DNA of 64,000 nt from NCBI GenBank assembly GCA_033763775.1, contig JANRJW010000014.1:89037-153036 (forward strand). Direction: 5' to 3'. Source of the stretch: Alphaproteobacteria bacterium (GTDB taxonomy: Bacteria > Pseudomonadota > Alphaproteobacteria > Rickettsiales > SXRF01). The position numbers were made by a program, and so were the translations under genes. Below are positions 16,957 to 47,243 of the stretch, piece after piece. The stretch's first letter is position 1; each line of letters starts with the position of its first letter. The notes below the pieces were generated by a model. That model had not been told where the DNA came from and made no database searches. It was given only the letters and a program-made list of their open reading frames with translations.

Positions 16957-17017
16957 GCCGGCGAAAGCCGGCATCCAGATTTGATAAGAACTGGATCCCC
17001 GGTTTCGCGGGGATGAC
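16952..17017. repeat. Family-A element (66 bp) at the leuS-lptE junction
   Basis: gtc-atgccggc-gaaa-gccggcat-ccag...ctgg-atccccg-gttt-cgcggggat-gac. Termini gtcat/atgac are inverted. Confidence 0.85.
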
Positions 17018-17023
17018 GATATT

Positions 17024-28853: not shown

Positions 28854-29795
28854 CTAGAATGGCGCCTTGACCATCATCGTGCAGGCAGAATAGACATGAA
28901 CTGAGTCCGGATCATAGCCTTGCGTATTTTGCACATTATAACGCGCGGGGATTTCATCCGTAAGGCAATAGCGCGAATTAGGTCCGGGTGAGCCAAAATA
29001 ATCTGGTATATTGCTAGAAAAATACGGCATATACCAGCTCAAGACCTCCCAGTTATTATACGAGGCGGCGCGCGCAATGCCGCTGAGCGGCATACCATCA
29101 TCGATTTTGCTGTCAAACGCATAGGCCTGCGGCGCGGTAAGCACCGTTATAACCCCGCTATCCGGTATGTCGGCAGAAAGCAGATAATAATGCCCGACAT
29201 CGGGTAAATACCCAACCCCGCCTATCTCCAGGTCATTCACATCATAATAGCTGAGGCTCCACATGGCAGGAGAGCCGTTAAACGATCCGCCATAGACCGA
29301 TGGAAAATAAACCCTGCCTTGATTAGGCGTGCTAGAATGGTAAACTTTTAACCCCTGAATCAGCCCGGCCTCCTGCATCCACCACAATGCGTGCTGCACC
29401 TCATGGGCGCCAACCGCACCGCCTGGCAGCGCTGTATTAAAGGCTGTGTGATTATGAATGATACTATTACCGTCGCCATCATATGCGCCGCCAGCCGTGA
29501 TGGCTGTGCCGGCAGGCGAAAACTGCGTGAAACCATAGCGGGCGGCATTGGCACAATCACCGGGCAGGCAGCGATATTTGGACTGAAATGCATGCACCGC
29601 GCTATTGAGCTCTTCAATTTCACCCACGGCCTTGCGAGTGACCCCCGCCTCCATGAGCGCATTGCCAGCCACCACACCACCCAACAACAACCCAATGACC
29701 AGCAACACAATCGACACTTCAACCAGCGTGAAACCACGCTTGGCGCTAGCGAGCGCCGTTCTGGCAGGTGTTGATGTGGTTCTGGTGGGTAGCAT
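28854..29795 (-). CDS. type IV pilin / pseudopilin-like protein with prepilin N-terminal methylation motif
   Basis: ...SAKRG/FTLVEVSIVLLVIGLLLGG (class III signal, Glu5) followed by an approximately 280-aa domain of no recognised family. Start placed at the ATG at 29795. Confidence 0.7.
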   Translation of the reverse strand: MLPTRTTSTPARTALASAKRGFTLVEVSIVLLVIGLLLGGVVAGNALMEAGVTRKAVGEIEELNSAVHAFQSKYRCLPGDCANAARYGFTQFSPAGTAITAGGAYDGDGNSIIHNHTAFNTALPGGAVGAHEVQHALWWMQEAGLIQGLKVYHSSTPNQGRVYFPSVYGGSFNGSPAMWSLSYYDVNDLEIGGVGYLPDVGHYYLLSADIPDSGVITVLTAPQAYAFDSKIDDGMPLSGIARAASYNNWEVLSWYMPYFSSNIPDYFGSPGPNSRYCLTDEIPARYNVQNTQGYDPDSVHVYSACTMMVKAPF

Positions 29796-29863
29796 GCAAT
29801 AAAGGTTCAGGCGTGTTGCTTTTTCTATATAACGAGAAAAAGAATAAATGATTAACAAGCCGC

Positions 29864-31987
29864 CTACAAAAACCCCACCGGATCGATATCTATCTTAATA
29901 CGCACGGAAGAGGGCGGTTTTACCGATTCCAACCAGCCGCTCATCAGCTCCGGCAGATTCACCTTGCGATCCGCGCGCACGAGAAGGCGCCAGCGATAGA
30001 GGCCGCGCAGGCGATAAAGCGGAGCAGGGGCGGGGCCTAGTAGGCGGATGACGGATGACGGATGACGGATGACAGGAAAACTAGCCGCAAGCTGCTTGGC
30101 TGTTTTGATGACCGCATCTTCTTTGCTGCCTTCCACAATTACGGCGGCAAGGCGAGCAAAAGGCGGCATCTTCGCGCTTTCGCGGGCGGCAAGTTCGGCC
30201 GCCACAAACTGATCGCGATCATTTGACGCCAGCGCCTGCATGACCGGATGATCCGGCTGGTAGCTCTGCAGATAGACCACGCCCGGGATTTGCTCACGCC
30301 CAGCGCGGCCAGACAGCTGGTGAAGCAGCTGATAGGTTTTTTCCGCCGCGCGCAGATCGCCGCCGCCAAGGCCTAAATCGCCATCCACCACCCCCACCAC
30401 CGAAAGCCCGCCAAAATGATGCCCCTTGGCGATCATCTGCGTGCCAATCAGCAGGTCGAGTTTTTTTTGTTCCATATCCGAAATAATTTGCGCCGCTTCC
30501 TTATTACCCGTCAGCTGGTCACTCGCCATCACCGCGATGCGGGCTGTTGGAAACAGCGCGCGCGCCTCCTCTTCAATGCGCTCCACACCGGGGCCACACG
30601 CCGCCAGCGACTCTTTCTCACCGCACGCCGGACAGACGGGTGGCAGCGGCTCGCGGTGGTGGCAGTGGTGACATTGGAGGAAGGGCTTTGGGCTTTGGGC
30701 TTTGGGCTCTGGTAAAGCAAAATCTCCCTGAAGCCTGGAGCCTGAAGCCTGAAGCCCATGCAACACCAGCCAGCTTGAACACTCCGCGCACTCAAAGCGG
30801 TGGCCGCAATGGCGACATAGCACCAACGGCGCATAGCCGCGCCGGTTGAGGAAAAGGAGCGCCTGCTCGCCGCGCGCGATGGCACTCGCCACTGCATCGC
30901 GCAGCTTTGGTGAAATGAACTGCGTGGCCGGCATTTTCTCGAGCCGCATATCGATCAGCTGCGTGGTGGGCAGGCAGGCGCCGCCGTGGCGCGCGGGCAG
31001 GCGCAGCTCGGCATATTTTCCTTGCTGGGCATTCAATACACTCTCCAGCGAAGGCGTGGCTGAGGCCAGTACCACCGGTATTTTTTCAAACCGCGCCCGC
31101 GAAACCGCCATATCGCGCGCATGGTAAATCACCTGGTCTTCCTGCTTGTAGGCCTGGTCGTGCTCTTCATCCACCACGATCAGCTTCAGGTTTCGGTAGG
31201 GAAGAAACAACGCTGAGCGCGCGCCCACCACCACCGGCGCAGCGCCGCTGGCAATCGCTTTCCACGCCTCACGTTTTTGTGCAGGCGTGACATGCGAATG
31301 CCATACCAGCGGGCGAAAGCCAAAGCGCGCTTCAAACCGCGCCATCCACTGCACGGAAAGAGCGATTTCGGGAAGGAGAATGAGAATTTGTGAGTGACGA
31401 GTGGCAAGTGGTGAGTGGTGAGTAATAGTATCTTTTTCTTTCTCGCCACTCGCCACTTGCCACTCGCCACTCAGCGCCTGCGCGATCGCCTCAAAATACA
31501 CCTCCGTCTTGCCTGAGCCAGTAACGCCATCGAGCAGCGTGACGGAAAAACCAGCTGCTAGTTTTTGGATGAGCGCATCCGCCGCCGCACGCTGGGCAGG
31601 CGAGAGCGTGGCAAGTTGGTAAGAATGGGATTGGGGATTCGATGCATTCTTTTTTCTTCCCCTAACCCCTAATCCCAAATCCCTAATCCCTAGCGGCAGC
31701 GCCATTTTCAGCATCAGGCCGGCCGGCGCACAATTATACCACGCCGCCCATTTTATAAATTCAATGAAATGCGGAGCAAAAGATGGCGCATCCAGCTTCT
31801 CGATCACCGCTTTTAGTTTCGCCTGCGGAATGTTTGCCGTGCCCGCACCCAGCACCAGACCAAGCGACGAGGCGCGCCCAAACGGCACACGAACGAGATC
31901 GCCACGTTCAAGCGCCATCCCATCTGGCACTACGTAGTCAAACCCGTGCGCCACGCCGGTAGGAAGTAGCACCTCAACTTGTTTCAT
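29864..31987 (-). CDS. priA: primosomal replication-restart helicase PriA
   Basis: [14 protein letters not shown] Walker A, DEEHD, Cys-rich zinc region [14 protein letters not shown]...CHHCHH...CPACG. Confidence 0.9.
30046..30073. repeat. Four perfect tandem heptamers (ggatgac x4) inside priA
   Basis: Direct reading. The complement gtcatcc equals the Family-A terminus. Read as IRHPSSVIR. Confidence 0.9.
30683..30757. repeat. Heptamer-arm palindrome, about 75 bp, inside the priA zinc-finger region
   Basis: gggcttt x3 plus gggctct, spacer, then gaagcct/ggagcct/gaagcct/gaagccc. Read as [25 protein letters not shown] between the two Cys clusters. Confidence 0.8.
31390..31472. repeat. Heptamer-arm palindrome (GTGAGTG type) in frame inside priA
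   Basis: gtgagtgacgagtggcaagtggtgagtggtgagt / ctcgccactcgccacttgccactcgccactc. Read as [25 protein letters not shown]. Confidence 0.85.
31622..31693. repeat. Heptamer-arm palindrome (TTAGGGG/ATTGGGG type), about 72 bp, inside priA
   Basis: aatgggattggggattcgatgcatt / cccctaacccctaatcccaaatccctaatccctag. Read as [24 protein letters not shown]. Confidence 0.8.
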
Positions 31988-35174: not shown

Positions 35175-35385
35175 ATTCCCGCTTTCGCCGCAGCAACGGA
35201 TGGTGTATGAGGCGAACTAAGCACCCGTAGCTCAGCTGGATAGAGCGCCTGCCTCCGACCGTGTCCGCCGAAGCCTTGGCGAAGGCGGAAGGCAAAGGTC
35301 ATAAAGCGCCCAATTCCCGCTTTCGCCGCAGCAATGGATGGTGTATGAGGCGAACTAAGCACCCGTAGCTCAGCTGGATAGAGCG
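35175..35385 (+). repeat. Tandem duplication (two 73-nt copies, 138-nt period, 1 mismatch) covering the tRNA-Arg upstream leader and 5' part
   Basis: attcccgctttcgccgcagcaa(c/t)ggatggtgtatgaggcgaactaagcacccgtagctcagctggatagagcg occurs at 35175-35247 and 35313-35385. Confidence 0.9.
35221..35300 (+). pseudogene. tRNA-Arg fragment: acceptor 5' strand, D arm and anticodon arm interrupted by an approximately 30-nt hairpin; T arm and 3' acceptor missing
   Basis: gcacccgtagctcagctggatagagcg matches the intact tRNA. Next come cctgcctccga, the insert ccgtgtccgccgaagccttggcgaaggcgg, then aaggcaaaggtc, after which similarity ends. Confidence 0.7.
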
Positions 35386-35435
35386 TTGCCCTCCGAAGGC
35401 AAAGGTCGGACGTTCGAATCGTCTCGGGTGCGCCA
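35359..35435 (+). tRNA. tRNA-Arg (anticodon CCG), CCA encoded
   Basis: Manual cloverleaf: gcacccg/cgggtgc acceptor, gctc..gagc D stem, ttgcc-ctCCGaa-ggcaa anticodon arm, ggacg-ttcgaat-cgtct T arm; 77 nt. Confidence 0.9.
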
Positions 35436-35559: not shown

Positions 35560-38262
35560 ATGCCACTGACACTGCAAGACCTGAAAGAGGCTACATCTCA
35601 AGCGAGATTCAATCGTAAAGAGTTAATCAGTTTAATTGAAGAGCATGGGCTGGTTGAGCGCGGCGGAAACAATAACTGGGGCGTGCCAGGACGCGCCGAT
35701 ATTAATCCGGTTTATATCCCTGATTACACAGAAATTAACAGCACCGTATGGAACAAGCTACTTAGAATCATGGAGCAGCTTGAAAAAGAAAAAGCGCCCA
35801 CCGAGACCGCCCCCAAAGCACCGCAGTGGCTGCATGATGAGTTGAAGAATATGCCCGAATGGGAGCTGGATGAAAGCCGGCTAGGCGAAAAGAGCGTCAC
35901 CCTGCGTAGCAAAGCCGCGCCGGAATTCGCCTTTGACGTGCCTCTGAGTGGCAATGATGTCATCGATAAAAAGACTTTCGATCTTTATGTTCAAAGCTAT
36001 GCAGGAAGTGAAAAAGAGCTGCTAAGTCTGACCAAATATCTTAAGCTACTTAGCGGACTTGATGAAAATGAGTGGAAGCTGGAGCGCAGCGCGCAAGGCA
36101 CGAAGCTCGTATCGCAGATGCAGGATATTCCGGACATTGAGCTAACCGGCAGGCCAGATCAACTGATCAAAAAAACAAACGACGCCAAAGAATATGCTGA
36201 GCTTTATCGAAATGATTTAGCGAAAAACCCAGCCGCAGCGCCTGAGCCCGCCTCCCCCGCGCCGCCAGAGCCTGAGATCCGCGCAGCGAAAAAGCTAGCC
36301 CCTGGCGCGGTGAAATCACCCGAGGAAGGTCAGCATGTGCTGATTCTTGACAGCAGCGCGATCATTGAGCTGGGGTCTTTTACTTTCGGTAAAAATGGCA
36401 ACAAGACCTCCCTGCTTGATATCGTGAAAGCCACGCAGAAGCTGCCGAATGTGAGCAAAATCATCATCCCCGATTATGTGGCGGATTTTGAAGTGCGCGG
36501 GCAGGGCACGCATTACGACGAAAAAGGCCAGCTGCTGGTGAGCGAAAGCATTCACGATAAAAAGAATTACGGCAATGACTATAAAGACGTGCGCGATAAC
36601 TTCCAGCGGCTCATCCACAATGCCGTGCGCCGTCATGTCGCGGCGGATGGCACGGTGGAATTTCTACATAATGCGGATGTGCCTGCTGAGCAGGTGAACA
36701 CCAGCATCGTCATCTGGGAGACACCCAAAGGCCGCGAATATGGCGAAGATATCTATACCAAGCTGAACGCAGGCAAGGTTCAGGAGGTGTTTGATAGCTA
36801 TGTCAGCAAGCCGGACGACCGAAGCTCGCGAAACAACTACGGTGAGCAGCAAATTGAGGCCATTTGCAACGACCGGGATTTTTACGCTGCGCCGGTGCAT
36901 ATCATCACCTCTGACAGGAACTACATCAGGGAAAGTAAGAACAATAAAACCGCAAACAAACAAAACAAAGCTTACCGCACCACGTTTGAATATCTTGATG
37001 CGGAGCTGTCATCGCGCGGACAGGAGCATCGCAATAAAATTGGCATGAGCTTCCAAAATGCTAAGGAAGCCTATGAGTATCTTCTGAACGACAGTAACGG
37101 AAAAATGGGAAAGGTTCAGGATGATAGTAGGCACATAACATCTCCCATCAGGCCTTTGATTCAAGACGGTATATTGGCTGCTGAAGCGGCGGGAGCCGCC
37201 GCCGCTGCGAGCCGACCCACTGTAACGCCAGCGGTAGCGCCGCGCCCAACTGTTGCGTTAAAGCCAGTGCGGGTGCCGGTGGTGCCTGCTGCAACGCCTG
37301 CTCCAACGGCTGTTCCAACTCCAGCTCCGGTGCCACCGCCCGCGGCGCGCACACTGGACGTTTCGCCGGAAGGCAGAGCATTTGGCGATTTGCTGCTGCG
37401 ACTGATGAATGATCGCGACCTTAACCGCTCTGGTTTTGCCAAGCTGATAAATGAGAACCTGCCACCGGATCAGTCCATGGATATTCAAACCGTGCGGGGT
37501 ATTTTATCTGGTAAGGAGCCGGTGAGCGAGGCACTGCTGGAGGTTATCGAAACCATCGCGATTGATCAGAACCCGCAGATCAATAACAAGGAAGATGCAA
37601 AGCAGGAGCTGCGGCAGGCTTGGGACAAAGCATGTGCGCAGCAGACGAACATGGCCAGCAGACAAGCTGTTGATAGCGCGGGTTACCATGGCTTTGGTGA
37701 TAAAGTTGCCGCGCTGTTTGAAAAGCGCAACGTGACCGACCCGGAAAAAATTGCAAGTGCCATCCGCGAGCAGATTGGCGTGCTGAAGCCGACCGAGCCG
37801 ACGATTGATAGCGCGCTGATACAAAAGATATTTGATGGTGAGCACCTGCCTTCGCCGGGGCTTGCTGCCGCGCTGCGCAAAGCGCTGGATAACCCCCCGG
37901 GTTTTGATGACGCCTATCAGAAAGCGCGTAGCGCGAAACCTCAGCCGCAAGAACTTTCAAAACTGCGTGAAAAAATCAAAAAACACTTCACGGATCTCGA
38001 TGAAACACTCGGCCTTAACGATATCGGCGTAGCAGGTAGAATTGGCCAGAAGCGCAATGTCGGCAGCTTGCTGGGCAAAGGCGGAAATGTGAGCTTTGAT
38101 GCCGAGCAGCTGGGAAGCTTTGGTTCAAATCTGAGCGGCTGGATGGAACGCGAACTCGGGGCAACACCCACGCAGGTCGCCGCGTTTCAAGCGGACTGGG
38201 AGCTTTTCAGCCGCGCCTATCTCGAAGAGCAGCAGAAGAAGCAGCTGAGCGCCGCGAAGTAG
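35560..38262 (+). CDS. large orphan protein (900 aa) with central PIN-like nuclease motifs, Pro/Ala linker and C-terminal HTH-like modules
   Basis: HVLILDSSAIIELG ... IIIPDYVADFEV ... GEQQIEAICNDRDF..VHIITSDRNYI resembles the PIN acidic-residue pattern. The Pro/Ala-rich linker is about residues 540-600. LLRLMNDRDLNRSGFAKLIN..DIQTVRGILSG is XRE-HTH-like. No overall family recognised. Confidence 0.55.
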   Translation: MPLTLQDLKEATSQARFNRKELISLIEEHGLVERGGNNNWGVPGRADINPVYIPDYTEINSTVWNKLLRIMEQLEKEKAPTETAPKAPQWLHDELKNMPEWELDESRLGEKSVTLRSKAAPEFAFDVPLSGNDVIDKKTFDLYVQSYAGSEKELLSLTKYLKLLSGLDENEWKLERSAQGTKLVSQMQDIPDIELTGRPDQLIKKTNDAKEYAELYRNDLAKNPAAAPEPASPAPPEPEIRAAKKLAPGAVKSPEEGQHVLILDSSAIIELGSFTFGKNGNKTSLLDIVKATQKLPNVSKIIIPDYVADFEVRGQGTHYDEKGQLLVSESIHDKKNYGNDYKDVRDNFQRLIHNAVRRHVAADGTVEFLHNADVPAEQVNTSIVIWETPKGREYGEDIYTKLNAGKVQEVFDSYVSKPDDRSSRNNYGEQQIEAICNDRDFYAAPVHIITSDRNYIRESKNNKTANKQNKAYRTTFEYLDAELSSRGQEHRNKIGMSFQNAKEAYEYLLNDSNGKMGKVQDDSRHITSPIRPLIQDGILAAEAAGAAAAASRPTVTPAVAPRPTVALKPVRVPVVPAATPAPTAVPTPAPVPPPAARTLDVSPEGRAFGDLLLRLMNDRDLNRSGFAKLINENLPPDQSMDIQTVRGILSGKEPVSEALLEVIETIAIDQNPQINNKEDAKQELRQAWDKACAQQTNMASRQAVDSAGYHGFGDKVAALFEKRNVTDPEKIASAIREQIGVLKPTEPTIDSALIQKIFDGEHLPSPGLAAALRKALDNPPGFDDAYQKARSAKPQPQELSKLREKIKKHFTDLDETLGLNDIGVAGRIGQKRNVGSLLGKGGNVSFDAEQLGSFGSNLSGWMERELGATPTQVAAFQADWELFSRAYLEEQQKKQLSAAK

Positions 38263-39269: not shown

Positions 39270-40064
39270 TTAAAAATCCGGGTAGTAATAGCGCGCATGC
39301 GGCGCGATGTCTTTTAGTTTTTTCAGCACCGTCTCCAGCGGCACATCCATGGGTTTAGCCTTCTGTTTTATCACAGAAAAATCATATTTACCAAGCCGCC
39401 TGCCGACAACATCTTCCAGTAGCATCGGCTGCGCTACCAGCGATTCATAGCGCAGCAGCGTGAGGTTTTTTTCCTGCTCATAGAGGCGCTGGTAGAGCAT
39501 GTCCAGCAGACGGATTTGCCGCTCCAGCAGCTCCATGGGCGCGCGCTGAAGCGCCGCAAGCTGCGGCCAGAAATAGCTGGCCGCCGGTAGTTCGCCGCGG
39601 GAAACCGGAAGGGGGCTCATGCGCCACGAAGCGAGCACCTCCAGCGGACTACGAATCAGCGCGATGATGCGAAACTGGCCAGAGGCGACCAGCTGCGGTA
39701 GCGCGCCGAGAAACAGCCCGTTATGTTTTGCCGCCAGCAGAAAATCCGCGCCAAGCCCACCGCGCACCAGCGGCACCACCGGCACCATATGTTCGCCGTT
39801 TTCATTCAGATAATTGGTGACTGGCCGACCATCTGCCCGCCGGTGATCCATCACCGGCTGGCCAGTAAGCAGCATGGTGCGAAGGCGCTGCATGTCGCGG
39901 GTGAGGGCTACGGCAAACGCCTCGGCGTTTGGCGCGGTTCTGGCAAGCTCCACCTGCCAGAGCGGCTCGCTGAGGCAGACACTCTCTTCCATGCTGTCGG
40001 TCAGCGCCGAAAGCAGCGTGGTGCCACTGCGGGGCAGGCCGGTGAGAAGCCACGGCTTGCTCAT
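39270..40064 (-). CDS. sulfotransferase-family protein
   Basis: MSKPWLLTGLPRSGTTLLS matches the 5'-PSB loop (PRSGTT) of PAPS-dependent sulfotransferases. ATGA overlap with the upstream glycosyltransferase. Confidence 0.65.
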   Translation of the reverse strand: MSKPWLLTGLPRSGTTLLSALTDSMEESVCLSEPLWQVELARTAPNAEAFAVALTRDMQRLRTMLLTGQPVMDHRRADGRPVTNYLNENGEHMVPVVPLVRGGLGADFLLAAKHNGLFLGALPQLVASGQFRIIALIRSPLEVLASWRMSPLPVSRGELPAASYFWPQLAALQRAPMELLERQIRLLDMLYQRLYEQEKNLTLLRYESLVAQPMLLEDVVGRRLGKYDFSVIKQKAKPMDVPLETVLKKLKDIAPHARYYYPDF

Positions 40065-41002
40065 GAAGGTTTGCGCCCAAGAAGTGTGCCAACATGCGCA
40101 AGCCACGCCTGCTCAAACGCCTCGGCGCTGTAATGTTTTGCCGTCTCCATGCCCGCCGCCGCGCAGCGCTCGGCCAACGCCTCATCCATCATCGCGCGGT
40201 GAACAATGTCTGCGAGCGAGCCGAGCTCACGGTAAGAACAGGTGAGCGAGTTTTCGCCGTAGCGCAGATAATCACGCCCGGCCAAACCATCCAGCCCGGT
40301 CACCATCGTGCCAAGCGCCATCGCTTCGAGCGGCACCAGCCCGAATCCTTCGGCAATGGTGAGATTGATAAGATAGCGCACCGAAGCCAGACGTTGCTGA
40401 AATTCTGTCCGCGATAGCTCCGTGCCCGTCACCAGCTGATCCAGCCGCACATCCGGCGCGCGGCGCGCCATGGCGGTGGCGAGAAAATGATACAGAATCG
40501 CCGTATCCGGTCCATCGCGCTTGATGAACACCAGCGCCGAATGCGCCGGCCGATCGCGCCATGGCGGCAGCGCCAGGCCGGGCTCAACCATCGCAAAAGG
40601 CGCCGTCACCGGCGCGGTGATGCCCCACACCGAGGCGAGATAGCGCTGCACCGTGGTGCTCGCCGCGACATAAAGATCAAACTGCCCATCAAGCACGCCA
40701 TGGGTATTAAATCCCTGCACATACATGATTTTGCGCCCGGGCAGACGCGCGCCAAAAAGAAAATTAGAAAAAGCCGGCGCGCTGACCAGCAGGTCATCAT
40801 CCGTCATCTGATCGTCCAGCTGCTGCAAGCTGCAGCGCTCCATCGGATGATCATAGGTAAAGGGCGAGACCTTGCCGCGCTGCACCTCAACATCCACCAA
40901 CCGGTAGCCAAAACGCATGCTAATCAGCCTGCCAAGGCGGTAAAGCATGTAGGCGCCACCCGCCGGCAGACTTGCACCTATTACATAAACACTGGTCGTC
41001 AT
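40061..41002 (-). CDS. glycosyltransferase, GT-B group 1 (GT4-like)
   Basis: 313 aa. EGFGLVPLEAMALGTMV (E-x7-E motif). Confidence 0.7.
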   Translation of the reverse strand: MTTSVYVIGASLPAGGAYMLYRLGRLISMRFGYRLVDVEVQRGKVSPFTYDHPMERCSLQQLDDQMTDDDLLVSAPAFSNFLFGARLPGRKIMYVQGFNTHGVLDGQFDLYVAASTTVQRYLASVWGITAPVTAPFAMVEPGLALPPWRDRPAHSALVFIKRDGPDTAILYHFLATAMARRAPDVRLDQLVTGTELSRTEFQQRLASVRYLINLTIAEGFGLVPLEAMALGTMVTGLDGLAGRDYLRYGENSLTCSYRELGSLADIVHRAMMDEALAERCAAAGMETAKHYSAEAFEQAWLAHVGTLLGRKPS

Positions 41003-41236
41003 TGCTTTATAAAAATCTGATTAATCTACATATTTTACTCTGTCTTAACCATCATGACAATTCTGAAAATAGCTTTTGCAGCACCTTCACATATTTGTCA
41101 CAAATAAATGCTTCAGATTATCCACAGGCTAGGCTAATGTTTCACTATCAGATCTGTGATCTGGTTATGTCTATTTGTGACGGTTCCTAAACCTAGGGAC
41201 AAATAGTTTTTCTAACGTTAGTAAAAAGGTAGTTTT

Positions 41237-41578
41237 ATGAAAACCCAAACTAAAGACTTAAGCATCGCATGGCAGGCTTGCCTGATGGTGATGCTGACCG
41301 CCATCGTGATCTCGATGCCGGAACTTGCTATGGCCAACTCCAACACCCCGATGGGTAACGTGCTGTGTACGGTAGTTGCATGGTTCACCGGCAACACCGG
41401 TAAAGGCCTTGCCACCATCGCGATCACCGTAATCGGTATCGGCGCACTCCTCGGTAAAGTATCCTGGGGTATGGCGATCATCGTTGGTATCGGCGTTGCG
41501 ATCGTATTCGGTGCCGCAGGCATCGTGAACACGATGGGCGCTGGCGGTGGTTCTACCCAGACTTGCGTTACTTCCTAA
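41237..41578 (+). CDS. virB2: VirB2/TrbC-family type IV secretion pilin
   Basis: Long leader ...PELAMA, then NVLCTVVAWFTGNTGKGLATIAITVIGIGALLGKVSWGMAIIVGIGVAIVFGAAGIV. This aligns well from memory with Agrobacterium VirB2 (two hydrophobic segments). Confidence 0.8.
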   Translation: MKTQTKDLSIAWQACLMVMLTAIVISMPELAMANSNTPMGNVLCTVVAWFTGNTGKGLATIAITVIGIGALLGKVSWGMAIIVGIGVAIVFGAAGIVNTMGAGGGSTQTCVTS

Positions 41579-41605
41579 TCGTAAGATTGGTAAAGCCAAG
41601 AAAAA

Positions 41606-41633
41606 CCCTGCCGAGCAATCGGCGGGGTTTTTT
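41606..41633 (+). terminator. Rho-independent terminator-like hairpin after virB2
   Basis: ccctgccg-agcaat-cggcgggg followed by tttttt, about 30 nt after the stop. Confidence 0.65.
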
Positions 41634-41669
41634 GTTGTTTGATACATCTGCACTTCGTATGCTGACTCC

Positions 41670-43124
41670 ATGAACATGCGCTATTTTCCACACAGTTTGG
41701 TCGTTCTTGTTTTTGGTATTGCGGTTCTTTTCGCTTTTGCCAATCAGACAGTCATTTTTCAAGACCCTGATACACTATGGCATATACGTGCCGGAGACCT
41801 GATCCGCCAGCATGGCATTGATAGCAATGAGCCCTGGTCGTGGACAGCGGGTGATTATCCATGGATCAATATTGCCTGGCTACCCGACATCGCGATGAGC
41901 TGGCTCTATGAGCTGGGTGGTTTAAGTTTACTCGCTGCCTGTACGTTGATCCTCTTTACCCTGGTCATTGCATCACTCGCTGCTATCGGCTTGAAACTTA
42001 AAGCAACAATAAGCATTATGGCATTGCCGCTTTTTTACAGCGCCGGCATCCTTGCCGAGGGAATGCTGGCACGGCCGCAGCTACTCAGTCTGCTATTTGC
42101 TGCTGCCGTATATGCGCTGTTGCGTTTTGCGCATACTCGCACGCTCTTGTGGCTGCTGCCGCTCTACTTGCTATGGAGTAATAGCCATGGGGGCTATATC
42201 ACCATGTTTGTTATCATTGGTATGTTCTTCATTGAGGCAGTGGTACAAAACCAGACGACGAAAGCGAAATGGCTTGCATTGATTGCCGCTGGCTGCGCTC
42301 TGTTGACTCTCGCTAACCCTTATGGGGTGCACATCCTCAGCGCCACGCTTGCCGTGCTGAGCACCCCTGCCAATCAGTTGCTGCATGAATGGCAAACTAC
42401 AGCACCAGCGCAATATCTCTACCTGCTCGGATGGCTTGTGCTGATGGTGATTGCTGGTGGCATGCGCAGCAAAGAGATTCCTCTCGCCGATAAGCTGCTT
42501 GCAATATTCTGGCTGGTAATGGCGATGGCGTCGCTACGCATGACTTACTTCGCCGCTATTTTCAGCTTCCCCTATCTGGTGCAGGCGCTAAGTGCATGGC
42601 AAAAAACCCTTCCGACGCTGACGAAAGATTTTCAAGCGCTGAGTAGTGATCCAATGCGCTGGAAAATATCGCTTACCGCAGTGGCCTTGATTGTCTTCTT
42701 ATTGTCACCCTGGCGCAGCTATATTCTGAGTGATATAAGCTTGCCCGAACATATCGCACCCAAAGTGGAGGTGGAGTTTCTTGCTGCGAATTATCCCCAG
42801 CTGAAACTAATGAACCACTATGATTTTGGCGGCTATCTGATTTATCGACGCGACCTTGGCCTTGAGCCATTCATCGATGGACGCGCAGAAACAGCCTACC
42901 CGCGAACGCTGATTATTGATTATTTTGTTCTCCAGAAATTAGATATTGGTTGGGAAAAAGTAGCAGCCGACTATGGTATTCAAGCGTTCCTATTGCCCCT
43001 GAAAGACAAGGATGGCATATCGCGCTCACCGCAAATTGCTATACTGGATCAGTCACCGCAATGGAAACGCGTTTTCACCGGCGATATTGCGGCGGTTTAT
43101 ATTCATCGAAATCTGAGCAGATAA
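41670..43124 (+). CDS. polytopic membrane protein, possible GT-C-fold glycosyltransferase
   Basis: 484 aa, more than 10 predicted TM segments. Acidic first-loop motif FQDPDTLWHIRAGD and a soluble C-terminal domain. Family not identified with certainty. Confidence 0.45.
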   Translation: MNMRYFPHSLVVLVFGIAVLFAFANQTVIFQDPDTLWHIRAGDLIRQHGIDSNEPWSWTAGDYPWINIAWLPDIAMSWLYELGGLSLLAACTLILFTLVIASLAAIGLKLKATISIMALPLFYSAGILAEGMLARPQLLSLLFAAAVYALLRFAHTRTLLWLLPLYLLWSNSHGGYITMFVIIGMFFIEAVVQNQTTKAKWLALIAAGCALLTLANPYGVHILSATLAVLSTPANQLLHEWQTTAPAQYLYLLGWLVLMVIAGGMRSKEIPLADKLLAIFWLVMAMASLRMTYFAAIFSFPYLVQALSAWQKTLPTLTKDFQALSSDPMRWKISLTAVALIVFLLSPWRSYILSDISLPEHIAPKVEVEFLAANYPQLKLMNHYDFGGYLIYRRDLGLEPFIDGRAETAYPRTLIIDYFVLQKLDIGWEKVAADYGIQAFLLPLKDKDGISRSPQIAILDQSPQWKRVFTGDIAAVYIHRNLSR

Positions 43125-44792
43125 TCATGGCCTGATACGCTCATAATAAATGAAGCGAAGCTGGTTTTTATCGTTGAGCGCTGCCTCTGTAGCAAGAATA
43201 GAGGCGCTGCCTTTAAATTTTTCATAATATAAACGCAACACTGGGAGCAATTCTTGTGGAACATCGATGTAGCGCTCAACCATTCGATAATTATTGGTAA
43301 ACTCAGGAAGCGCATGCATGCCATGGTCACTGAGGAAAGCAGGTTTCTTTGCGCCCCAAATGTGTCCAAAAATAATATAATCTGGCCTTCGAGACAAAAC
43401 ATATTGCCCATCACCCTTGAGATGCCCCACGACATAGGCAGTGAAATCATCTGGAACAACCGCGGCATCATAGGGCTTTCTCGCTATATATTTATCATTA
43501 AGCCCTAGCATATCAATATAGCGAAACTGAGGCGCTATATAAGGTAAAGCACCGGCAGGGTTGATCGCAATCAACGATCCTGACGGCCAGTTTTCACTGA
43601 TGTAAGGCCCTGCCGATAGCCCCGAAATTGCGCCTTTTGATAAATAATCATCTAATTCAACATAACCAAACTGTAAAATAGAAAGCACGATCATCGCACC
43701 AGAGAAATCTCGAAAATACCTTTCGTTTTTTTCTATTAGCCAACCTGCTGTGTAAAAAATAAATATCGCCAGAAGCGGAATGATCGGTACATAAAAACGC
43801 AAATATTTCATGTGATCACCGCCACTGGTAATCACATGCCAGAAGAGCGCAGTTATCAACAGCAAGAGATAAAAAGCTGTGCGAGATTTTAATGCATAAT
43901 CACGGATCATCCAGAAGAGCACAAGCACCGCAAGAGGCAGCAAAGGTGGCACATAAAATATTTGAAAGATATAAAACCAGCCAAGGCGAGTCAGCAGATC
44001 GGCAGGAATGCCATACACTTTGGCATAGTACGTATTAGGCAGGAAATCGCCATACATATGGTATTTCCACGCCATCCACGGCGCAAAAAGCAGCATGAAG
44101 CCAAAAAAGAGCAGCATCAGGCGCGAAAAATCGAGATATTTGCGCTGCGATGGCAGCAGCCAGAAAAGCCCAAGCACAATGCCGGTGATGCCCCAGATCA
44201 TGAGGCCTTCCATGCGCGTCATGGTCGCAAGCGCAAAGAGGACACCGGTTAAAAACACCATTTTTTTGCTCAGGCCAAACTCAAGCCAGTACAGCACGAG
44301 GCAAACAGCACCGGTGAGTAGAAAGCTGAAAAGAACGGCCTCCAGCCCGCCCATCACCCATGCGAGCACCGGCACCGCTGAGGCGACAAGCCCAACGCAT
44401 AGCGCGGCATTAATCTGATGGGCGTAATATTTCTCGCTGCTGGCAAATTTCCGCCGGTACATGGTCTGCGTAAAGCCATAAAGCACCGCCAGTAAGGCAA
44501 AATATCCCGCAAAGCTAACCACACGAGTTGCGAGTACCAGATCCATGCCCAGCCAGCCAAGAGCGGCAATCAGCACCATGTAAAGAAAGTTCGAATAGCC
44601 CTCAACCGGCTCATCGCCGCGGCTCCACACGAGGCCGTAGCCCTCGAGCCAATTGCGCGCATAGACCAGTGTGATGTAGGAATCATCCTGATAAAAGCCG
44701 CGCGTAAACCACCATACGACCAGCGCAATCGCAGCGCTTTGAAGGTAAATATAGGCAGGCGGCCAATGCGCTTTTTTAGGAAGCGCTGCCAT
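43125..44792 (-). CDS. GT-C-fold membrane glycosyltransferase (ArnT/PMT/arabinofuranosyltransferase-like)
   Basis: 555 aa. N-terminal FYQDDSYITLVYARNWLEGYGLVWSRGDEPVEGYSNFLY is typical of DD-motif GT-C enzymes. Many TM segments and a C-terminal soluble domain. Confidence 0.6.
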   Translation of the reverse strand: MAALPKKAHWPPAYIYLQSAAIALVVWWFTRGFYQDDSYITLVYARNWLEGYGLVWSRGDEPVEGYSNFLYMVLIAALGWLGMDLVLATRVVSFAGYFALLAVLYGFTQTMYRRKFASSEKYYAHQINAALCVGLVASAVPVLAWVMGGLEAVLFSFLLTGAVCLVLYWLEFGLSKKMVFLTGVLFALATMTRMEGLMIWGITGIVLGLFWLLPSQRKYLDFSRLMLLFFGFMLLFAPWMAWKYHMYGDFLPNTYYAKVYGIPADLLTRLGWFYIFQIFYVPPLLPLAVLVLFWMIRDYALKSRTAFYLLLLITALFWHVITSGGDHMKYLRFYVPIIPLLAIFIFYTAGWLIEKNERYFRDFSGAMIVLSILQFGYVELDDYLSKGAISGLSAGPYISENWPSGSLIAINPAGALPYIAPQFRYIDMLGLNDKYIARKPYDAAVVPDDFTAYVVGHLKGDGQYVLSRRPDYIIFGHIWGAKKPAFLSDHGMHALPEFTNNYRMVERYIDVPQELLPVLRLYYEKFKGSASILATEAALNDKNQLRFIYYERIRP

Positions 44793-45472
44793 TAATAGAC
44801 GCCTGGCTTATTCGTGAAGGTGCCAATCACCTCGCCCTTTGCCAGCACATGCGGCTGAATGATATCTTCCACATATTGCCCGCCAAACAGGCCAGAAAGA
44901 TTCACCGACGGCACCGAAAGCGCATACACCGTGAAATGGTAGCGGTGAAGACGCGTATCATTCCATGGCGGGCAGGGGCCATCATAGCCGCCATGCGGGC
45001 CTTCGCCCATGAAGCGCGCATAATCATTCTGCCCAACCACACCGTAAGCACGCTTGCCTAGCTCTTTACCCCCTTTGGTGATGCCGCGGCTATCTGCCCC
45101 CTCGGCAATGGCGACCATGGTGGAGGGAATATCCACCAGCACCCAGTGGTAGAAATTCTGCCGAGGAAATTCGCGCGGAATGACTTTACCCTCCTGATTC
45201 GCCAGCTCAAAGCTCTGGGGCACATCGCGATCGACCACCAGAATCACATAAGACTTCGTGCCTTCCGGCGCGCCCGACCATTCAATCGATGGATTAATGT
45301 TCTGGCCATCTTTGGTTTTTCCCTGACCATCAGGAATGCAGTAAGCAAAGCGCTCGGGGATGGGTTTGCCATTCTCAATGCCACCCACTTTCACCGTGAG
45401 CTTGGCGGGCTCCTGCGCAAGGGCGGGGGAGGCAAGCGTCATCGCGATCAAGGCTGGAAGAATGAATTTCAT
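44792..45472 (-). CDS. YbhB/YbcL-family phosphatidylethanolamine-binding (PEBP) protein with signal peptide
   Basis: MKFILPALIAMTLASPALA; PSIEWSGAPEGTKSYVILVVDRDVP...YHWVLVDIP...GPCPP...HRYHFTVYAL. Its stop overlaps the GT-C start (TAATG). Confidence 0.8.
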   Translation of the reverse strand: MKFILPALIAMTLASPALAQEPAKLTVKVGGIENGKPIPERFAYCIPDGQGKTKDGQNINPSIEWSGAPEGTKSYVILVVDRDVPQSFELANQEGKVIPREFPRQNFYHWVLVDIPSTMVAIAEGADSRGITKGGKELGKRAYGVVGQNDYARFMGEGPHGGYDGPCPPWNDTRLHRYHFTVYALSVPSVNLSGLFGGQYVEDIIQPHVLAKGEVIGTFTNKPGVY

Positions 45473-45523
45473 AGGTATACTCACTATGGGTTGAATAATC
45501 GTACTGCAATGTCTATATTTCAT

Positions 45524-45602
45524 GTCATTGCGAGCGTAGCGAAGCAATCCAGCAGTTGCAAGAAAATCTGGATTGCTTCGTCGCTTCACTCCTCGCAATG
45601 AC
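45524..45602. repeat. 79-bp palindromic element (gtcattgcgag type)
   Basis: gtcattgcgagcgtagcgaagcaatccag...ctggattgcttcgtcgcttcactcctcgcaatgac; inverted termini. Confidence 0.85.
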
Positions 45603-45615
45603 AAGAAGGAATTTT

Positions 45616-47135: not shown

Positions 47136-47243
47136 GTCATCCCCGCGAAAGCGGGGATCCAGTCTAAGCCGTGATTAGTGACGAAAGAATTTTTTTCCTC
47201 GCTGGCGCGAGTAACGCTGGATTCCTGCTTTCGCAGGAATGAC
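47136..47243. repeat. Family-A element (108 bp), intergenic
   Basis: gtc-atccccgc-gaaa-gcggggat-ccag ... ctgg-attcctgc-tttc-gcaggaat-gac. Confidence 0.9.

What the first reader, a model, noticed from the sequence alone, without database searches (positions are those of the whole stretch)
41237..44792. Orphan VirB2/TrbC pilin gene followed by and facing GT-C-type membrane glycosyltransferases: possible glycosylated conjugative-type pilin
A well-conserved VirB2 homologue sits alone, with no other virB/trb genes in 64 kb, in a lower-GC block. It is followed 90 nt downstream by a 484-aa polytopic protein with an acidic first-loop motif. A convergent 555-aa DD-motif GT-C enzyme is co-transcribed with a periplasmic PEBP protein. 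In Pseudomonas, the GT-C arabinosyltransferase TfpW is encoded directly after the type IV pilin it glycosylates. An analogous arrangement around a T4SS pilin has not been described, to my knowledge. The pilin has an extra Ser/Thr-rich tail (GAGGGSTQTCVTS). One caveat is that VirB2/TrbC pilins are usually C-terminally trimmed and cyclised.
Basis: inference. Interest (0 to 1): 0.65.

Follow-up and report, generated by a model that had tools for sequence, protein, structure and literature searches.

The report
T4SS pilin gene flanked by glycosyltransferases
A very conserved, separately transcribed extra copy of the type IV secretion pilin gene in a freshwater Rickettsiales-like bacterium sits among changeable membrane glycosyltransferase genes, which suggests but does not prove that this pilus is sugar-modified, something not yet described for bacterial pili of this class.

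Summary
41237-41578 encodes a TrbC/VirB2 pilin (Pfam 67 bits). 41670-43124 (484 aa) and 43125-44792 (555 aa) are both GT-C-fold glycosyltransferases. The 555-aa enzyme is AftB-like, with all AftB catalytic and donor-binding residues kept. No other T4SS gene lies in the 64 kb.

"Orphan" is misleading. The closest relative's MAG carries a VirB2-VirB4-VirB6-VirB8-VirB9 operon on another contig. The window gene is therefore an unlinked pilin paralogue, as in the scattered rvh systems of Rickettsiales. It has its own strong terminator, was the only local gene assembled in a lake metatranscriptome, and is more conserved than its housekeeping neighbours. Only its Ser/Thr/Gly-rich ends vary.

Across about 22 related lineages the pilin gene keeps its place beside PEBP-NifU-SecF. 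The slot next to it holds GT-C genes of two families, plus a third candidate family, in 8 lineages. A GT4+sulfotransferase pair lies upstream in about 11 loci. In one genome a 484-type gene heads the T4SS operon itself.

Against this, most loci have no adjacent GT-C. Orthologues of the 555-aa enzyme sit beside mlaA-mlaC in sister genomes. The 484 family is mostly found without VirB2.

Pilin glycosylation is a reasonable, untested hypothesis (about 0.4). A general surface-glycan islet is the main rival.

The parts
39270..40106 (-). PAPS-type sulfotransferase (278 aa). It is paired with the GT4 gene, and the pair recurs upstream of the pilin gene in relatives.
   Evidence: Pfam Sulfotransfer_3 and Sulfotransfer_1. 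Orthologues 36-45% identical lie next to GT4 and VirB2 in L013, L016, L019, L025, L026, L034, L036, L042 and L043.
40061..41002 (-). GT4-family (GT-B) cytoplasmic glycosyltransferase (313 aa), transcribed divergently from the pilin gene.
   Evidence: Pfam Glycos_transf_1 at 27.6 bits and Glyco_trans_1_4. Orthologues are 44-48% identical in 10 related loci.
41003..41236 (.). AT-rich (33% GC) divergent intergenic region, presumed to hold the promoters for the pilin gene and for the GT4-sulfotransferase pair.
   Evidence: GC. A metatranscriptome contig starts at 41164, 73 nt before the ATG. Only weak consensus promoter matches were found.
41237..41578 (+). Unlinked VirB2/TrbC pilin paralogue. It has a 33-aa signal peptide ending AMA, an 80-aa mature protein, an invariant core, invariant Cys44 and Cys110, and variable Ser/Thr/Gly/Asn-rich N- and C-terminal segments.
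   Evidence: Pfam PF04956 at 67 bits. 606 homologues, the best 120 being 74-94% identical. Alignments. It is more conserved than NifU, SecF, RibF and PEBP.
41600..41640 (+). Strong intrinsic terminator directly after the pilin gene: 15-bp stem, tetraloop, T-run.
   Evidence: The same kind of hairpin plus T-run follows every unlinked VirB2 copy in 17 relatives and is absent after the operon-linked copies L051 and L052.
41670..43124 (+). 484-aa GT-C-fold membrane glycosyltransferase of an unnamed family. Its start codon is 30 nt after the terminator T-run.
   Evidence: AF2 pLDDT 92. Foldseek top hits are DPY19, STT3/PglB/AglB and AftA, E 4e-7 to 6e-4. D34, W65, W70, W169, H173, R290 and D403-G404-R405 are invariant. 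Family members lie next to VirB2 in L010, L025, L026, L029 and L037.
43125..44792 (-). 555-aa AftB-like GT-C glycosyltransferase, probably using a polyprenyl-phospho-pentofuranose donor. It is convergent with the 484-aa gene and translationally coupled to the PEBP gene.
   Evidence: The family profile hits only AftB in the PDB, E 7e-26. Foldseek top hits are AftB 9dlf and 9dlh. AftB D62, E172, R221, T274 and R372 align to D37, E151, R193, T254 and R332, all invariant or at least 90% conserved.
44792..45472 (-). Periplasmic PEBP (YbhB/YbcL family) protein. It is the conserved neighbour that anchors the locus.
   Evidence: Pfam PBP at 117.6 bits and TIGR00481. A 226-aa gene call with signal peptide is seen in L004. 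It is syntenic in about 22 lineages.

Best explanation
Shown: the gene is an unlinked pilin (VirB2) paralogue of a P-type/rvh-like type IV secretion system, in a freshwater alphaproteobacterium whose relatives are labelled Rickettsiales. Inferred from expression and conservation: it is probably the major pilin. It is a monocistronic unit with its own strong terminator. It is expressed in situ. It is under stronger constraint than the neighbouring housekeeping genes. The exceptions are its two ends, which would face the periplasm in the membrane-inserted pool and the outside of the assembled pilus. The rest of the T4SS lies elsewhere in the genome; this is shown for the closest relative only.

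Shown: the pilin gene is embedded in a changeable set of glycan genes. A GT4 glycosyltransferase and a sulfotransferase lie upstream. A 484-aa GT-C enzyme lies directly downstream. An AftB-like 555-aa GT-C enzyme is co-transcribed with the PEBP gene.

Inferred mechanism: the 484-aa gene is expressed at a low level, by read-through of the pilin terminator. In the periplasm, one or both GT-C enzymes transfer sugar from polyprenyl-phosphate-linked donors onto Ser/Thr residues of the variable pilin ends before pilus assembly. This parallels TfpW acting on PilA. For the 555-aa enzyme the sugar is probably a pentofuranose. The cytoplasmic GT4 and sulfotransferase may build or decorate the donor glycan. 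Replacement of the GT-C gene between lineages would then diversify the pilus surface.
For: - **Pilin identity and conservation.**
- **T4SS elsewhere.** The same MAG as the 94%-identical locus L010 has, on contig L052, VirB2 paralogue-VirB4-VirB6-VirB8-VirB9. L051 shows the same, and L055 and others have ORFs of matching size and order.
- **Separate transcription.** A terminator follows the pilin gene here and in 17 relatives.
- **Both enzymes are GT-C.**. AftB active-site residues are conserved in the 555-aa family.
- **Recurrent adjacency of GT-C genes to VirB2**:
  - 484 family on the same strand downstream: window/L010 and L029.
  - 484 family convergent: L025. Just beyond PEBP: L026.
  - 484 family at the head of a VirB2-VirB4-VirB6-VirB8 operon: L037.
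  - 555 family convergent: L001/L003/L035.
  - A 27%-identical member of the 555 family on the same strand: L006.
  - A third ~10-TM candidate family on the same strand: L012/L020.
- **Non-orthologous replacement.** The 484-type genes next to VirB2 are only 25-31% identical between lineages, while flanking genes are 50-75% identical.
- **GT4+sulfotransferase.** The pair is directly upstream of VirB2 in about 9 loci and stays with VirB2 in a rearranged context, L043.
- **Local control.** Within the ±10 kb fetched around each pilin gene, all matches to the two GT-C family profiles lie within two genes of VirB2.
Against: - No direct evidence of any modification exists.
- 14 of about 22 syntenic lineages have VirB2 directly against PEBP, with no GT-C gene.
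- Orthologues of the 555-aa enzyme (49-50% identical) in the genomes of L013 and L016 lie after mlaA-mlaC, overlapping mlaC in L065. They are not near VirB2. Another lies after gshA.
- Of 80 distant 484-family loci from metagenomes, only 2 have a VirB2 within 6 kb. A 33%-identical member sits in a ybgC-tol context without VirB2.
- Tail composition does not differ visibly between loci with and without an adjacent GT-C.
- The variable tail plus Cys pair is generic to rvh-type VirB2, including the operon copies.
- Cryo-EM studies of bacterial conjugative pili and T-pili report no glycosylation (PMC9905601).
- No donor-pathway genes (UbiA-type PRTase, DprE1/E2, GtrA/MATE flippase) are in the window.
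- A weak leaderless promoter for the 484-aa gene cannot be excluded.
Confidence: 0.42

Rival explanations
1. This is a flexible surface-glycan islet with no enzyme-substrate relation. The GT-C enzymes, GT4 and sulfotransferase modify LPS, a capsule or another envelope glycolipid. They lie next to the pilin gene only because this site is a hot spot where genes for exposed, phage- or grazer-selected surface structures accumulate and are exchanged.
For: - The content on both sides of VirB2 varies between lineages. L009 has an O-antigen-like cluster (DegT, GT2, WbqC, Acyl_transf_3). L024 has an arylsulfotransferase. L001 has an FkbM methyltransferase.
- 555-aa orthologues are coupled to mlaA-mlaC in sister genomes. 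In the window the gene is coupled to a periplasmic PEBP-family protein.
- AftB and ArnT, the best structural matches of the 555-aa enzyme, act on glycans or lipids.
- Distant 484-family members neighbour GT2/GtrA and GT87 genes and lack VirB2.
- The Phaeobacter homologue of the 555-aa enzyme sits in an EPS-type cluster.
- The two GT-C genes have lower GC than their surroundings.
Against: - The association follows VirB2 into other contexts: L037, at the head of the T4SS operon, and L043.
- Two GT-C families and a third candidate family use the same-strand slot just after the pilin terminator, leaving little or no room for a promoter.
- No A1 or A2 profile match occurs 2-10 kb from the pilin in the same loci.
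- The window has its own separate initiating glycan genes 12 kb away (WbpL/WecA-like and Polysacc_synt_2).
Confidence: 0.35
2. The GT-C enzymes glycosylate a different exported protein. Candidates are the type-IV-pilin-like proteins of this clade, as in TfpW/TfpO systems, or the co-transcribed periplasmic partner. The VirB2 adjacency would then be incidental.
For: - A prepilin-like gene (GFTLIE motif) lies directly upstream of VirB2 in L001/L003 and near it in L037. Its homologue is in the window at 28854-29858.
- 555-family genes are translationally coupled or overlapping with genes for exported proteins in three contexts: PEBP, MlaC, and a 1823-aa PKD/Laminin_G protein in Phaeobacter.
- Foldseek places protein-modifying GT-Cs (DPY19, STT3, PglB) at the top for the 484-aa model.
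Against: - The prepilin-like gene is near VirB2 in only 2 lineages and is 11 kb away in the window.
- Foldseek ranking among GT-C members does not predict the acceptor.
Confidence: 0.13
3. The unlinked VirB2 copy has a role other than forming an external pilus, for example only an inner channel or stalk component, or a membrane protein recruited to a new role. The neighbouring enzymes might modify the lipid that co-assembles with VirB2-type pilins rather than the protein.
For: - The core conservation is extreme for a pilin.
- Conjugative pili are 1:1 pilin-phospholipid assemblies (PMC9905601).
- The 555-aa gene is linked to lipid-related periplasmic proteins.
Against: - In some lineages the same conserved type is the copy in the T4SS operon (L037, L039, L033, L032), so it is a normal T4SS subunit.
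- Nothing specific supports lipid modification.
Confidence: 0.05

Closest known systems
PilA-TfpW (Pseudomonas aeruginosa group IV pilins) and PilA-TfpO/PilO (group I)
   Same: A glycosyltransferase gene lies immediately downstream of the major pilin gene. TfpW is a GT-C enzyme with a DDX motif in the first periplasmic loop and uses a polyprenyl-P-D-Araf donor (bioRxiv 10.1101/2020.04.19.049825). The 555-aa enzyme is AftB-like, with the donor-binding residues conserved. The glycosylated pilin regions are Ser/Thr-rich and surface-exposed.
   Different: The pilin here is a VirB2/TrbC (T4SS) pilin, not a type IV pilin. Neither enzyme has TfpW's C-terminal TPR domain. No TfpX-like gene or D-Araf pathway genes were seen. 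Sequence similarity to TfpW could not be tested. TfpO/PglL are Wzy_C-type enzymes, not GT-C. Adjacency here is present in only a minority of lineages.
Rickettsiales vir homologue (rvh) T4SS, with unlinked or multiplied virB2 (Rickettsia RvhB2; Anaplasmataceae VirB2 paralogues)
   Same: T4SS genes are scattered in islets, with virB2 apart from virB3-B4-B6 and virB8-B11 (PMC2653234). Distant VirB2 relatives of the window protein are in Midichloriaceae and Jidaibacter. Tandem VirB2 copies occur in relatives (L006 with 3, L014, L017, L019 and L042 with 2). Environmental Rickettsiales with higher GC and an rvh T4SS are known (PMC9352585).
   Different: The papers retrieved report no glycan genes beside virB2 in classical Rickettsiales, and none of the Midichloriaceae or Jidaibacter loci fetched here has them. 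In this clade both an operon copy and an unlinked, more conserved copy exist.
Mycobacterial AftB (terminal beta-1,2 arabinofuranosyltransferase; PDB 9dlf, 9dlh)
   Same: The transmembrane part is homologous at profile level (E 7e-26). It is the best fold match. The DD motif with nucleophile D62, and E172, R221, T274 and R372, are all conserved.
   Different: Foldseek alignment identity is 15-17%. The periplasmic domain is different and smaller. The organism is a Gram-negative alphaproteobacterium without arabinogalactan. The donor and acceptor are unknown.
GT136-type three-component pentofuranose systems (Citrobacter youngae O antigens)
   Same: A GT-C enzyme adds a pentofuranose side chain in the periplasm from a polyprenyl-phosphate donor, in Gram-negative bacteria (PMC11127046). 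This is a precedent for the rival reading of glycan modification.
   Different: Those systems cluster the GT-C gene with a polyprenyl-phosphoribose synthase and a MATE flippase. Neither is in this locus. Membership in GT136 was not tested.
Archaeal Ced/Ted conjugation-like pili (CedA1, TedC)
   Same: These are VirB2-like pilins for which diffuse peripheral cryo-EM density 'consistent with glycosylation' was reported (PMC9905601).
   Different: They are archaeal and use N-glycosylation machinery. No specific sites were resolved, and there is no adjacent GT-C gene logic.

Membership tests
TrbC/VirB2 pilin (PF04956) | Profile match above the curated threshold | tested here: met
   67.2 bits against a cutoff of 27.9, covering residues 6-99.
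TrbC/VirB2 pilin (PF04956) | Long signal peptide with an Ala-x-Ala cleavage site, and two hydrophobic helices joined by a short basic loop | tested here: met
   Read directly from the sequence and alignment...PELAMA|NSNTPMG..., helix GLATIAITVIGIGALLG, loop KVSW, helix GMAIIVGIGVAIVFGAAGIV. No signal-peptide predictor was run.
TrbC/VirB2 pilin (PF04956) | Works with a T4SS (VirB3-B11) encoded in the same genome | tested here: inconclusive
   None in the 64-kb window. The closest relative's MAG has VirB2-VirB4-VirB6-VirB8-VirB9 on contig L052. The window's own genome could not be searched. Runs that hold the window also hold fragments about 90% identical to L052.
TrbC/VirB2 pilin (PF04956) | C-terminal trimming or head-to-tail cyclisation, as in RP4 TrbC and Ti VirB2 | not testable with these tools
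   The conserved Cys44/Cys110 pair suggests a disulfide instead. This is inference only.
GT-C fold glycosyltransferases | Polytopic membrane core with the GT-C fold | tested here: met
   484 aa: pLDDT 92, with Foldseek hits to DPY19, STT3, PglB, AglB and AftA, E 4e-7 to 6e-4, TM-score 0.5-0.6. 555 aa: pLDDT 95, with AftB, ArnT and STT3 as top hits.
GT-C fold glycosyltransferases | Conserved catalytic Asp in the first extracytoplasmic loop | tested here: met
   D34 is invariant in 72 sequences of the 484 family. D36 and D37 are invariant in 70 sequences of the 555 family.
AftB-like arabinofuranosyltransferases | Sequence homology to AftB | tested here: met
   The profile of 70 family members hits only AftB in the PDB: E 7.1e-26, profile positions 16-346 against AftB residues 38-397.
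AftB-like arabinofuranosyltransferases | Catalytic nucleophile and donor-binding residues (D62, E172, R221, T274, R372 of M. chubuense AftB) | tested here: met
   They align to D37, E151, R193, T254 and R332 of the window protein, all invariant or at least 90% conserved. The roles of these residues come from PMC12041299.
AftB-like arabinofuranosyltransferases | Polyprenyl-phospho-arabinose donor pathway in the genome (UbiA-type PRTase, DprE1/DprE2) | tested here: inconclusive
   Absent from the 64-kb window. The rest of the genome is not available. One 39%-identical orthologue lies two genes from a UbiA-family gene of unknown role.
TfpW-type pilin glycosylation system | GT-C gene immediately downstream of the pilin gene it modifies | tested here: met
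   The 484-aa gene starts 91 nt after the pilin stop, on the same strand. The same layout with other GT-C genes occurs in L006, L010, L012, L020 and L029. This concerns arrangement only; modification was not shown.
TfpW-type pilin glycosylation system | Large C-terminal periplasmic TPR domain | tested here: not met
   Neither protein has a TPR Pfam match. In the models the C-terminal domains are small mixed alpha/beta domains.
TfpW-type pilin glycosylation system | Sequence homology to TfpW and a TfpX-like partner | not tested
   No TfpW or TfpX sequence or structure was available in the libraries searched.
TfpW-type pilin glycosylation system | Pilin carries the glycan | not testable with these tools
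   This needs mass spectrometry.
PglL/TfpO O-oligosaccharyltransferases (Wzy_C) | Wzy_C / O-antigen ligase domain | tested here: not met
   Neither membrane protein has a Wzy_C match in Pfam or NCBIfam.
rvh-type (Rickettsiales) T4SS | T4SS genes scattered, with virB2 separate from the virB3/4/6 and virB8-11 islets | tested here: met
   VirB2 lies in a housekeeping context here and in about 22 lineages. The VirB4/6/8/9 cluster is on a separate contig in relatives. The family description is from PMC2653234.
rvh-type (Rickettsiales) T4SS | Duplicated virB4/8/9 and multiple virB6 | not tested
   Only one cluster per relative was seen within the fetched flanks.

The most novel reading that the evidence does not exclude
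In free-living, freshwater Rickettsiales-like bacteria, the VirB2 pilus of the rvh-type T4SS is O-glycosylated on its hypervariable, disulfide-looped ends. The enzymes are interchangeable GT-C glycosyltransferases encoded beside the pilin gene, and the glycan may carry pentofuranose and/or sulfate. This would be the first glycosylated bacterial T4SS pilin. It would give a diversity-generating sugar coat analogous to type IV pilin and flagellin glycosylation islands.
Probability: 0.38. Interest if true: 0.8.

Novelty: new variant of a known kind. Interest (0 to 1): 0.58.

Why it matters
The papers found here describe VirB2/TrbC pilins as processed by signal-peptide cleavage, trimming and cyclisation. 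I also recall N-acetylation by TraX. Structural work states that no glycosylation has been described for bacterial conjugative pili or T-pili (PMC9905601). A pilin-linked and exchangeable set of GT-C enzymes would add a new layer of surface variation to type IV secretion systems. It would do so in the lineage thought to resemble the free-living ancestor of Rickettsiales, where the role of the T4SS (bacterial killing, defence against grazers, host contact) is open. The locus also yields two testable enzymes. One is an AftB-like GT-C in a Gram-negative bacterium. The other belongs to a widespread GT-C family that has no Pfam, NCBIfam or PDB match. Even if the rival reading is right, the locus is a clear example of a surface-glycan hot spot anchored on a pilin gene.

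Tried and rejected
- **Sequence searches of the 484-aa protein.** Pfam, NCBIfam and PDB gave nothing, with the single sequence or the profile. Only the fold search placed it.
- **Relation between the two GT-C families.** Profile-profile comparison gave probability 1.9%, so they are not demonstrably related by sequence.
- **Third family (L012/L020).** It has only a sub-threshold Pfam PTPS_related match (20.4 bits against 26.4). There was no hhalign signal to either family and no PDB hit.
- **Metagenome scan with the full 484-family alignment.** It failed because no stretch was conserved enough. I repeated it with closer sequences.
- **Tail composition versus adjacent GT-C.** No visible correlation.
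- **The Cys44/Cys110 pair as a special feature of the 'orphan'.** Rejected, because all rvh-type VirB2 proteins have it, including operon copies, Midichloriaceae and planctomycete hits.
- **tRNA-Arg-bounded genomic island with an integrase.** Only a housekeeping-type XerC with DUF484 lies upstream. The partial tRNA duplication is noted but not interpreted as an att site.
- **T4SS in the window's own population.** Laying L052 on the runs that hold the window gave patchy matches only, about 90% identical over the first 2.6 kb plus fragments of virB8. This is suggestive, not decisive.
- **VirB2 copies counted as independent loci.** L034/L029, L038/L030 and L046/L040 are probably halves of one tandem-VirB2 locus split by assembly, so I did not count them separately.
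- **Other RNA elements.** An Rfam scan of 34-46.5 kb found only the tRNA.

Full report
**1. What is in the sequence**

- 41237-41578 (+) encodes a 113-aa protein that matches Pfam TrbC/VIRB2 at 67 bits, against a cutoff of 27.9.
- After a 91-nt gap comes a 484-aa polytopic protein (41670-43124, +).
- Convergent with it, stop codons abutting, is a 555-aa polytopic protein (43125-44792, -).
- The start of the 555-aa gene overlaps by one base the stop of a periplasmic PEBP/YbhB-family gene. The true extent of that gene is about 44792-45472, because the longer listed ORF runs into a repeat element.
- Upstream and divergent are a GT4 glycosyltransferase (40061-41002) and a sulfotransferase (39270-40106).

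I scanned every large ORF of the window against Pfam. The context is chromosomal housekeeping: mnmE, gidA, gidB, parAB, leuS, the atp operon, priA, xerC, sodB, nifU, secF, ribF, lspA, M16 peptidases, pgi and mutL. There is no other T4SS, relaxase or conjugation gene.

The pilin gene itself is 55%, the window mean.

**2. The two membrane proteins are GT-C glycosyltransferases**

*The 555-aa protein.* It has about 355 homologues; JGI names some 'arabinofuranosyltransferase', and some distant members carry Pfam PMT_2.
- A profile of 70 members hits a single PDB sequence, mycobacterial AftB, at E 7e-26.
- The AF2 model (pLDDT 95) has AftB as its best fold match, followed by ArnT and STT3.
- The structural paper identifies the AftB residues that act as nucleophile or bind the donor: D62, E172, R221, T274 and R372 (PMC12041299). 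In the HMMER alignment these fall on D37, E151, R193, T254 and R332. All are invariant or at least 90% conserved in the family.
- I infer a polyprenyl-phosphate-linked pentofuranose or similar donor. The acceptor is unknown.

*The 484-aa protein.* It has no match in Pfam, NCBIfam or the PDB by sequence.
- Its AF2 model (pLDDT 92) is clearly a GT-C fold. The best matches are the C-mannosyltransferase DPY19, STT3/PglB/AglB oligosaccharyltransferases and AftA.
- D34 in the first loop ('QDPD') is invariant. So are W65, W70, W169, H173, R290 and D403-G404-R405.
- The two families are not detectably related by profile comparison.

**3. The pilin is not a true orphan**

The VirB2-like protein has 606 homologues; the best 120 are 74-94% identical. 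Nearly all come from MAGs labelled Rickettsiales bacterium or Alphaproteobacteria bacterium. More distant relatives are in Midichloriaceae and Candidatus Jidaibacter.

The MAG that holds the closest copy of the locus is RE-15aug16-6. Its locus L010 has a pilin 94% identical and a 484-aa protein 88% identical to the window's. On another contig (L052) the same MAG has a second VirB2 paralogue, followed by a 100-aa ORF, VirB4, VirB6, VirB8 and VirB9. L051 shows the same, with Pfam matches to VirB4, VirB6 and VirB8. L055, L064 and others have ORFs of matching size and order after their VirB2 copies.

So the window gene is an unlinked paralogue, and the machine is encoded elsewhere. This matches the 'archipelago' layout of the Rickettsiales rvh system (PMC2653234). 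Free-living, higher-GC Rickettsiales with an rvh T4SS are already known (PMC9352585). For the window's own genome this is inference. Laying L052 on the metagenomes that hold the window gave only patchy matches of about 90% identity.

**4. Properties of the unlinked copy**

- **Synteny.** In about 22 species-level lineages the gene keeps the same position, convergent with PEBP and followed by nifU, secF and ribF.
- **Conservation.** It is the most conserved protein of the neighbourhood: 76-86% identity over its full length, against about 70% for NifU and SecF, 50-60% for PEBP and about 48% for RibF. The core from 'TPMG' to 'GAAGIV' is almost invariant.
- **Variable parts.** These are the few residues after the signal-peptide site, and a Gly/Ser/Thr/Asn-rich tail of 7-25 residues. 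The tail ends in an invariant Cys followed by 0-6 residues.
- **Possible disulfide.** This Cys, together with a second invariant Cys near the N-terminus, occurs in all rvh-type VirB2 proteins, including operon copies. A disulfide tying the two ends together is a plausible substitute for cyclisation. That is my inference only.
- **Copy number.** The gene is often tandemly multiplied: three copies in L006, two in L014, L017, L019 and L042.
- **Terminator.** A strong intrinsic terminator follows the gene (41600-41640). An equivalent hairpin plus T-run follows every unlinked copy in 17 relatives, but not the operon copies L051 and L052.
- **Expression.** In a lake metatranscriptome, a 321-nt contig (word depth 21.8, 99% identical) covers 41164-41484. 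Contig depth is a crude measure, and DNA carry-over cannot be excluded.

Together these features fit a highly expressed structural subunit.

**5. Is the link to glycosyltransferases more than chance?**

*For a link.*
- The slot beside VirB2 holds a GT-C gene in 8 of about 22 syntenic lineages, and in two further contexts:
  - 484 family plus 555 family: window and L010.
  - 555 family, convergent: L001/L003 and L035.
  - A 27%-identical member of the 555 family on the same strand: L006.
  - 484 family on the same strand (L029), convergent (L025), or just beyond PEBP (L026).
  - A third ~10-TM family with a weak PTPS_related match on the same strand: L012 and L020, the latter with a PAP2 phosphatase.
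  - In L037, a 484-family gene directly upstream of a VirB2-VirB4-VirB6-VirB8 operon.
- The 484-type genes at this slot are only 25-31% identical between lineages, while flanking genes are 50-75% identical. This indicates replacement rather than vertical descent.
- The GT4+sulfotransferase pair lies directly upstream of VirB2 in about 9 loci. It stays with VirB2 where the downstream context has changed, in L043.
- Within the ±10 kb fetched around each pilin gene, every match to the two GT-C family profiles lies within two genes of VirB2.
- In the window the 484-aa start codon is 30 nt after the terminator T-run, and in L029 about 11 nt. That leaves little room for a promoter, so expression by read-through is likely. 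From memory, the P. aeruginosa 1244 pilA-pilO pair is transcribed in this way.

*Against a link.*
- 14 lineages have nothing between VirB2 and PEBP.
- Orthologues of the 555-aa enzyme in the genomes of L013 and L016 lie after mlaA-mlaC, overlapping mlaC in L065, far from VirB2. Another lies after gshA.
- Of 80 distant 484-family loci from soil-type metagenomes, only two have a VirB2 within 6 kb. Their neighbours are heterogeneous (GT2, GtrA, GT87).
- A 33%-identical member lies in a ybgC-tol context.
- Tail composition does not track the presence of an adjacent GT-C.
- The regions around VirB2 also carry other surface-glycan genes: an O-antigen-like cluster in L009, an arylsulfotransferase in L024 and an FkbM methyltransferase in L001. 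This is what a general flexible surface islet would look like.

**6. Most likely mechanism and its rivals**

I rate pilin glycosylation as the single best-supported functional reading, at about 0.4. The shown parts are the pilin identity, the GT-C identity, the AftB-like active site, the separate transcription and the recurrent adjacency.

The inferred steps are these. VirB2 inserts in the inner membrane with both ends in the periplasm. The GT-C enzymes, whose active sites face the periplasm, transfer sugar from polyprenyl-phosphate donors to Ser/Thr of the variable ends. The modified pilin is then polymerised by the T4SS encoded elsewhere. Exchange of the GT-C gene alters the pilus surface.

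The rivals:
- **General surface-glycan islet without an enzyme-substrate relation (0.35).** This reading is especially plausible for the 555-aa enzyme, given its mlaAC-linked orthologues.
- **Another exported acceptor (0.13).** An example is the type-IV-pilin-like proteins that neighbour VirB2 in L001/L003 and L037 and lie at 28854-29858 in the window.
- **A non-pilus or lipid-directed role (0.05).**

**7. Comparison with known systems and novelty**

The arrangement resembles PilA-TfpW. The locus fails TfpW membership on the TPR domain, and homology to TfpW could not be tested. It is not a PglL/TfpO-type system, because there is no Wzy_C domain. The 555-aa enzyme passes the sequence and active-site tests for an AftB-like enzyme.

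Searches of the paper library found no report of a glycosylated bacterial VirB2-type pilin. The cryo-EM comparison paper states that none has been described for bacterial conjugation pili. It reports only diffuse density consistent with glycosylation on archaeal Ced/Ted pili.

I therefore class the finding as a possible new variant of a known kind: pilin-adjacent glycosylation, transferred to a T4SS pilin. It is well supported as a genomic pattern and untested as biochemistry.

Noticed in passing
window 11973-12917: Four copies of the perfect palindrome AAAATGTTTCACGTGAAACATTTT lie within about 950 bp, inside the 3' end of gidA and in gidB, just upstream of parA-parB. The core TGTTTCACGTGAAACA matches the parS consensus as I recall it, so this is probably the ParB loading cluster near the origin. 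The stretch is also the GC minimum of that part of the window (44.5%).
   Followed up: partly
window 35175-35258 and 35313-35396: An 84-nt direct repeat (94% identical) duplicates 46 nt of upstream sequence plus the 5' part of tRNA-Arg(CCG). The first copy is a tRNA fragment with a 31-nt GC-rich hairpin inserted in the anticodon loop, and it lacks the T-arm. Only the second copy (35359-35435) is called as a tRNA. It may be a scar of a rearrangement at the edge of the variable block 35.5-45 kb.
   Followed up: partly
window 45520-45610, 47136-47163, 5698-5731, 16952-17027, 1633-1659: Short REP-like palindromic repeats (for example GTCATCCCCGCGAAAGCGGGGATC) are scattered in intergenic regions. 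They artificially lengthen the listed ORFs of the PEBP, nifU and secF genes (translations such as RSNPDFLATAGLLRYARND and IPAFAGMT). In the metagenome runs, the 30 nt at 45523-45553 have many-fold higher depth, with loose ends on both sides, so the element is multi-copy in the community.
   Followed up: partly
window 28854-29858 (-): A type-IV-prepilin-like gene (N_methyl motif GFTLVEVSIV; 334-aa ORF, probably shorter) lies between priA and the atp operon. Homologues (E about 1e-22) lie directly upstream of the VirB2 gene in L001/L003 and near it in L037.
   Followed up: partly
window 35560-38262 (+): A 900-aa ORF directly after the tRNA-Arg has no Pfam or NCBIfam match. It has long Pro/Ala-rich linkers and is not found in the flanks of related loci.
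   Followed up: no
window 56633-59513 (+): A WecA/WbpL-type polyprenyl-phosphate sugar-phosphate transferase (PF00953) and a Polysacc_synt_2 dehydratase (WbpM/PglF-like) follow mutL. They are conserved in the same position in L006 and L009. They could initiate a lipid-linked glycan.
   Followed up: no
L052 768-1559 (+): In the closest relative's MAG, a TraX-family gene lies two genes upstream of the T4SS operon (Pfam TraX, E 5.5e-12). From memory, TraX is the F-pilin N-acetylase. This would be a second possible pilin modification enzyme in this clade.
   Followed up: no
L006 8873-10339; also L014, L017, L019, L042, L040/L046: The unlinked VirB2 gene is tandemly multiplied (2-3 copies) in several lineages. 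The copies differ mainly in the N-terminal segment and the tail. Several 'separate' loci are probably halves of one such array broken by assembly.
   Followed up: partly
L150 2533-9629 (Phaeobacter sp. 22II1-1F12B): A 33%-identical homologue of the 555-aa enzyme overlaps the stop of a gene for a 1823-aa secreted protein with Laminin_G, PKD and Big_9 domains. An EPS-type cluster follows, including a Sulfotransfer_2 gene. This is another case where the family is coupled to an exported protein.
   Followed up: no
window 25132-25211 and 31391-31473: Two near-identical hairpin-forming elements are built from GTGAGTG/CACTCGC-type short repeats (35-nt arms, 89% complementary). One lies between atp genes and one inside or next to priA. 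Their function is unknown.
   Followed up: no
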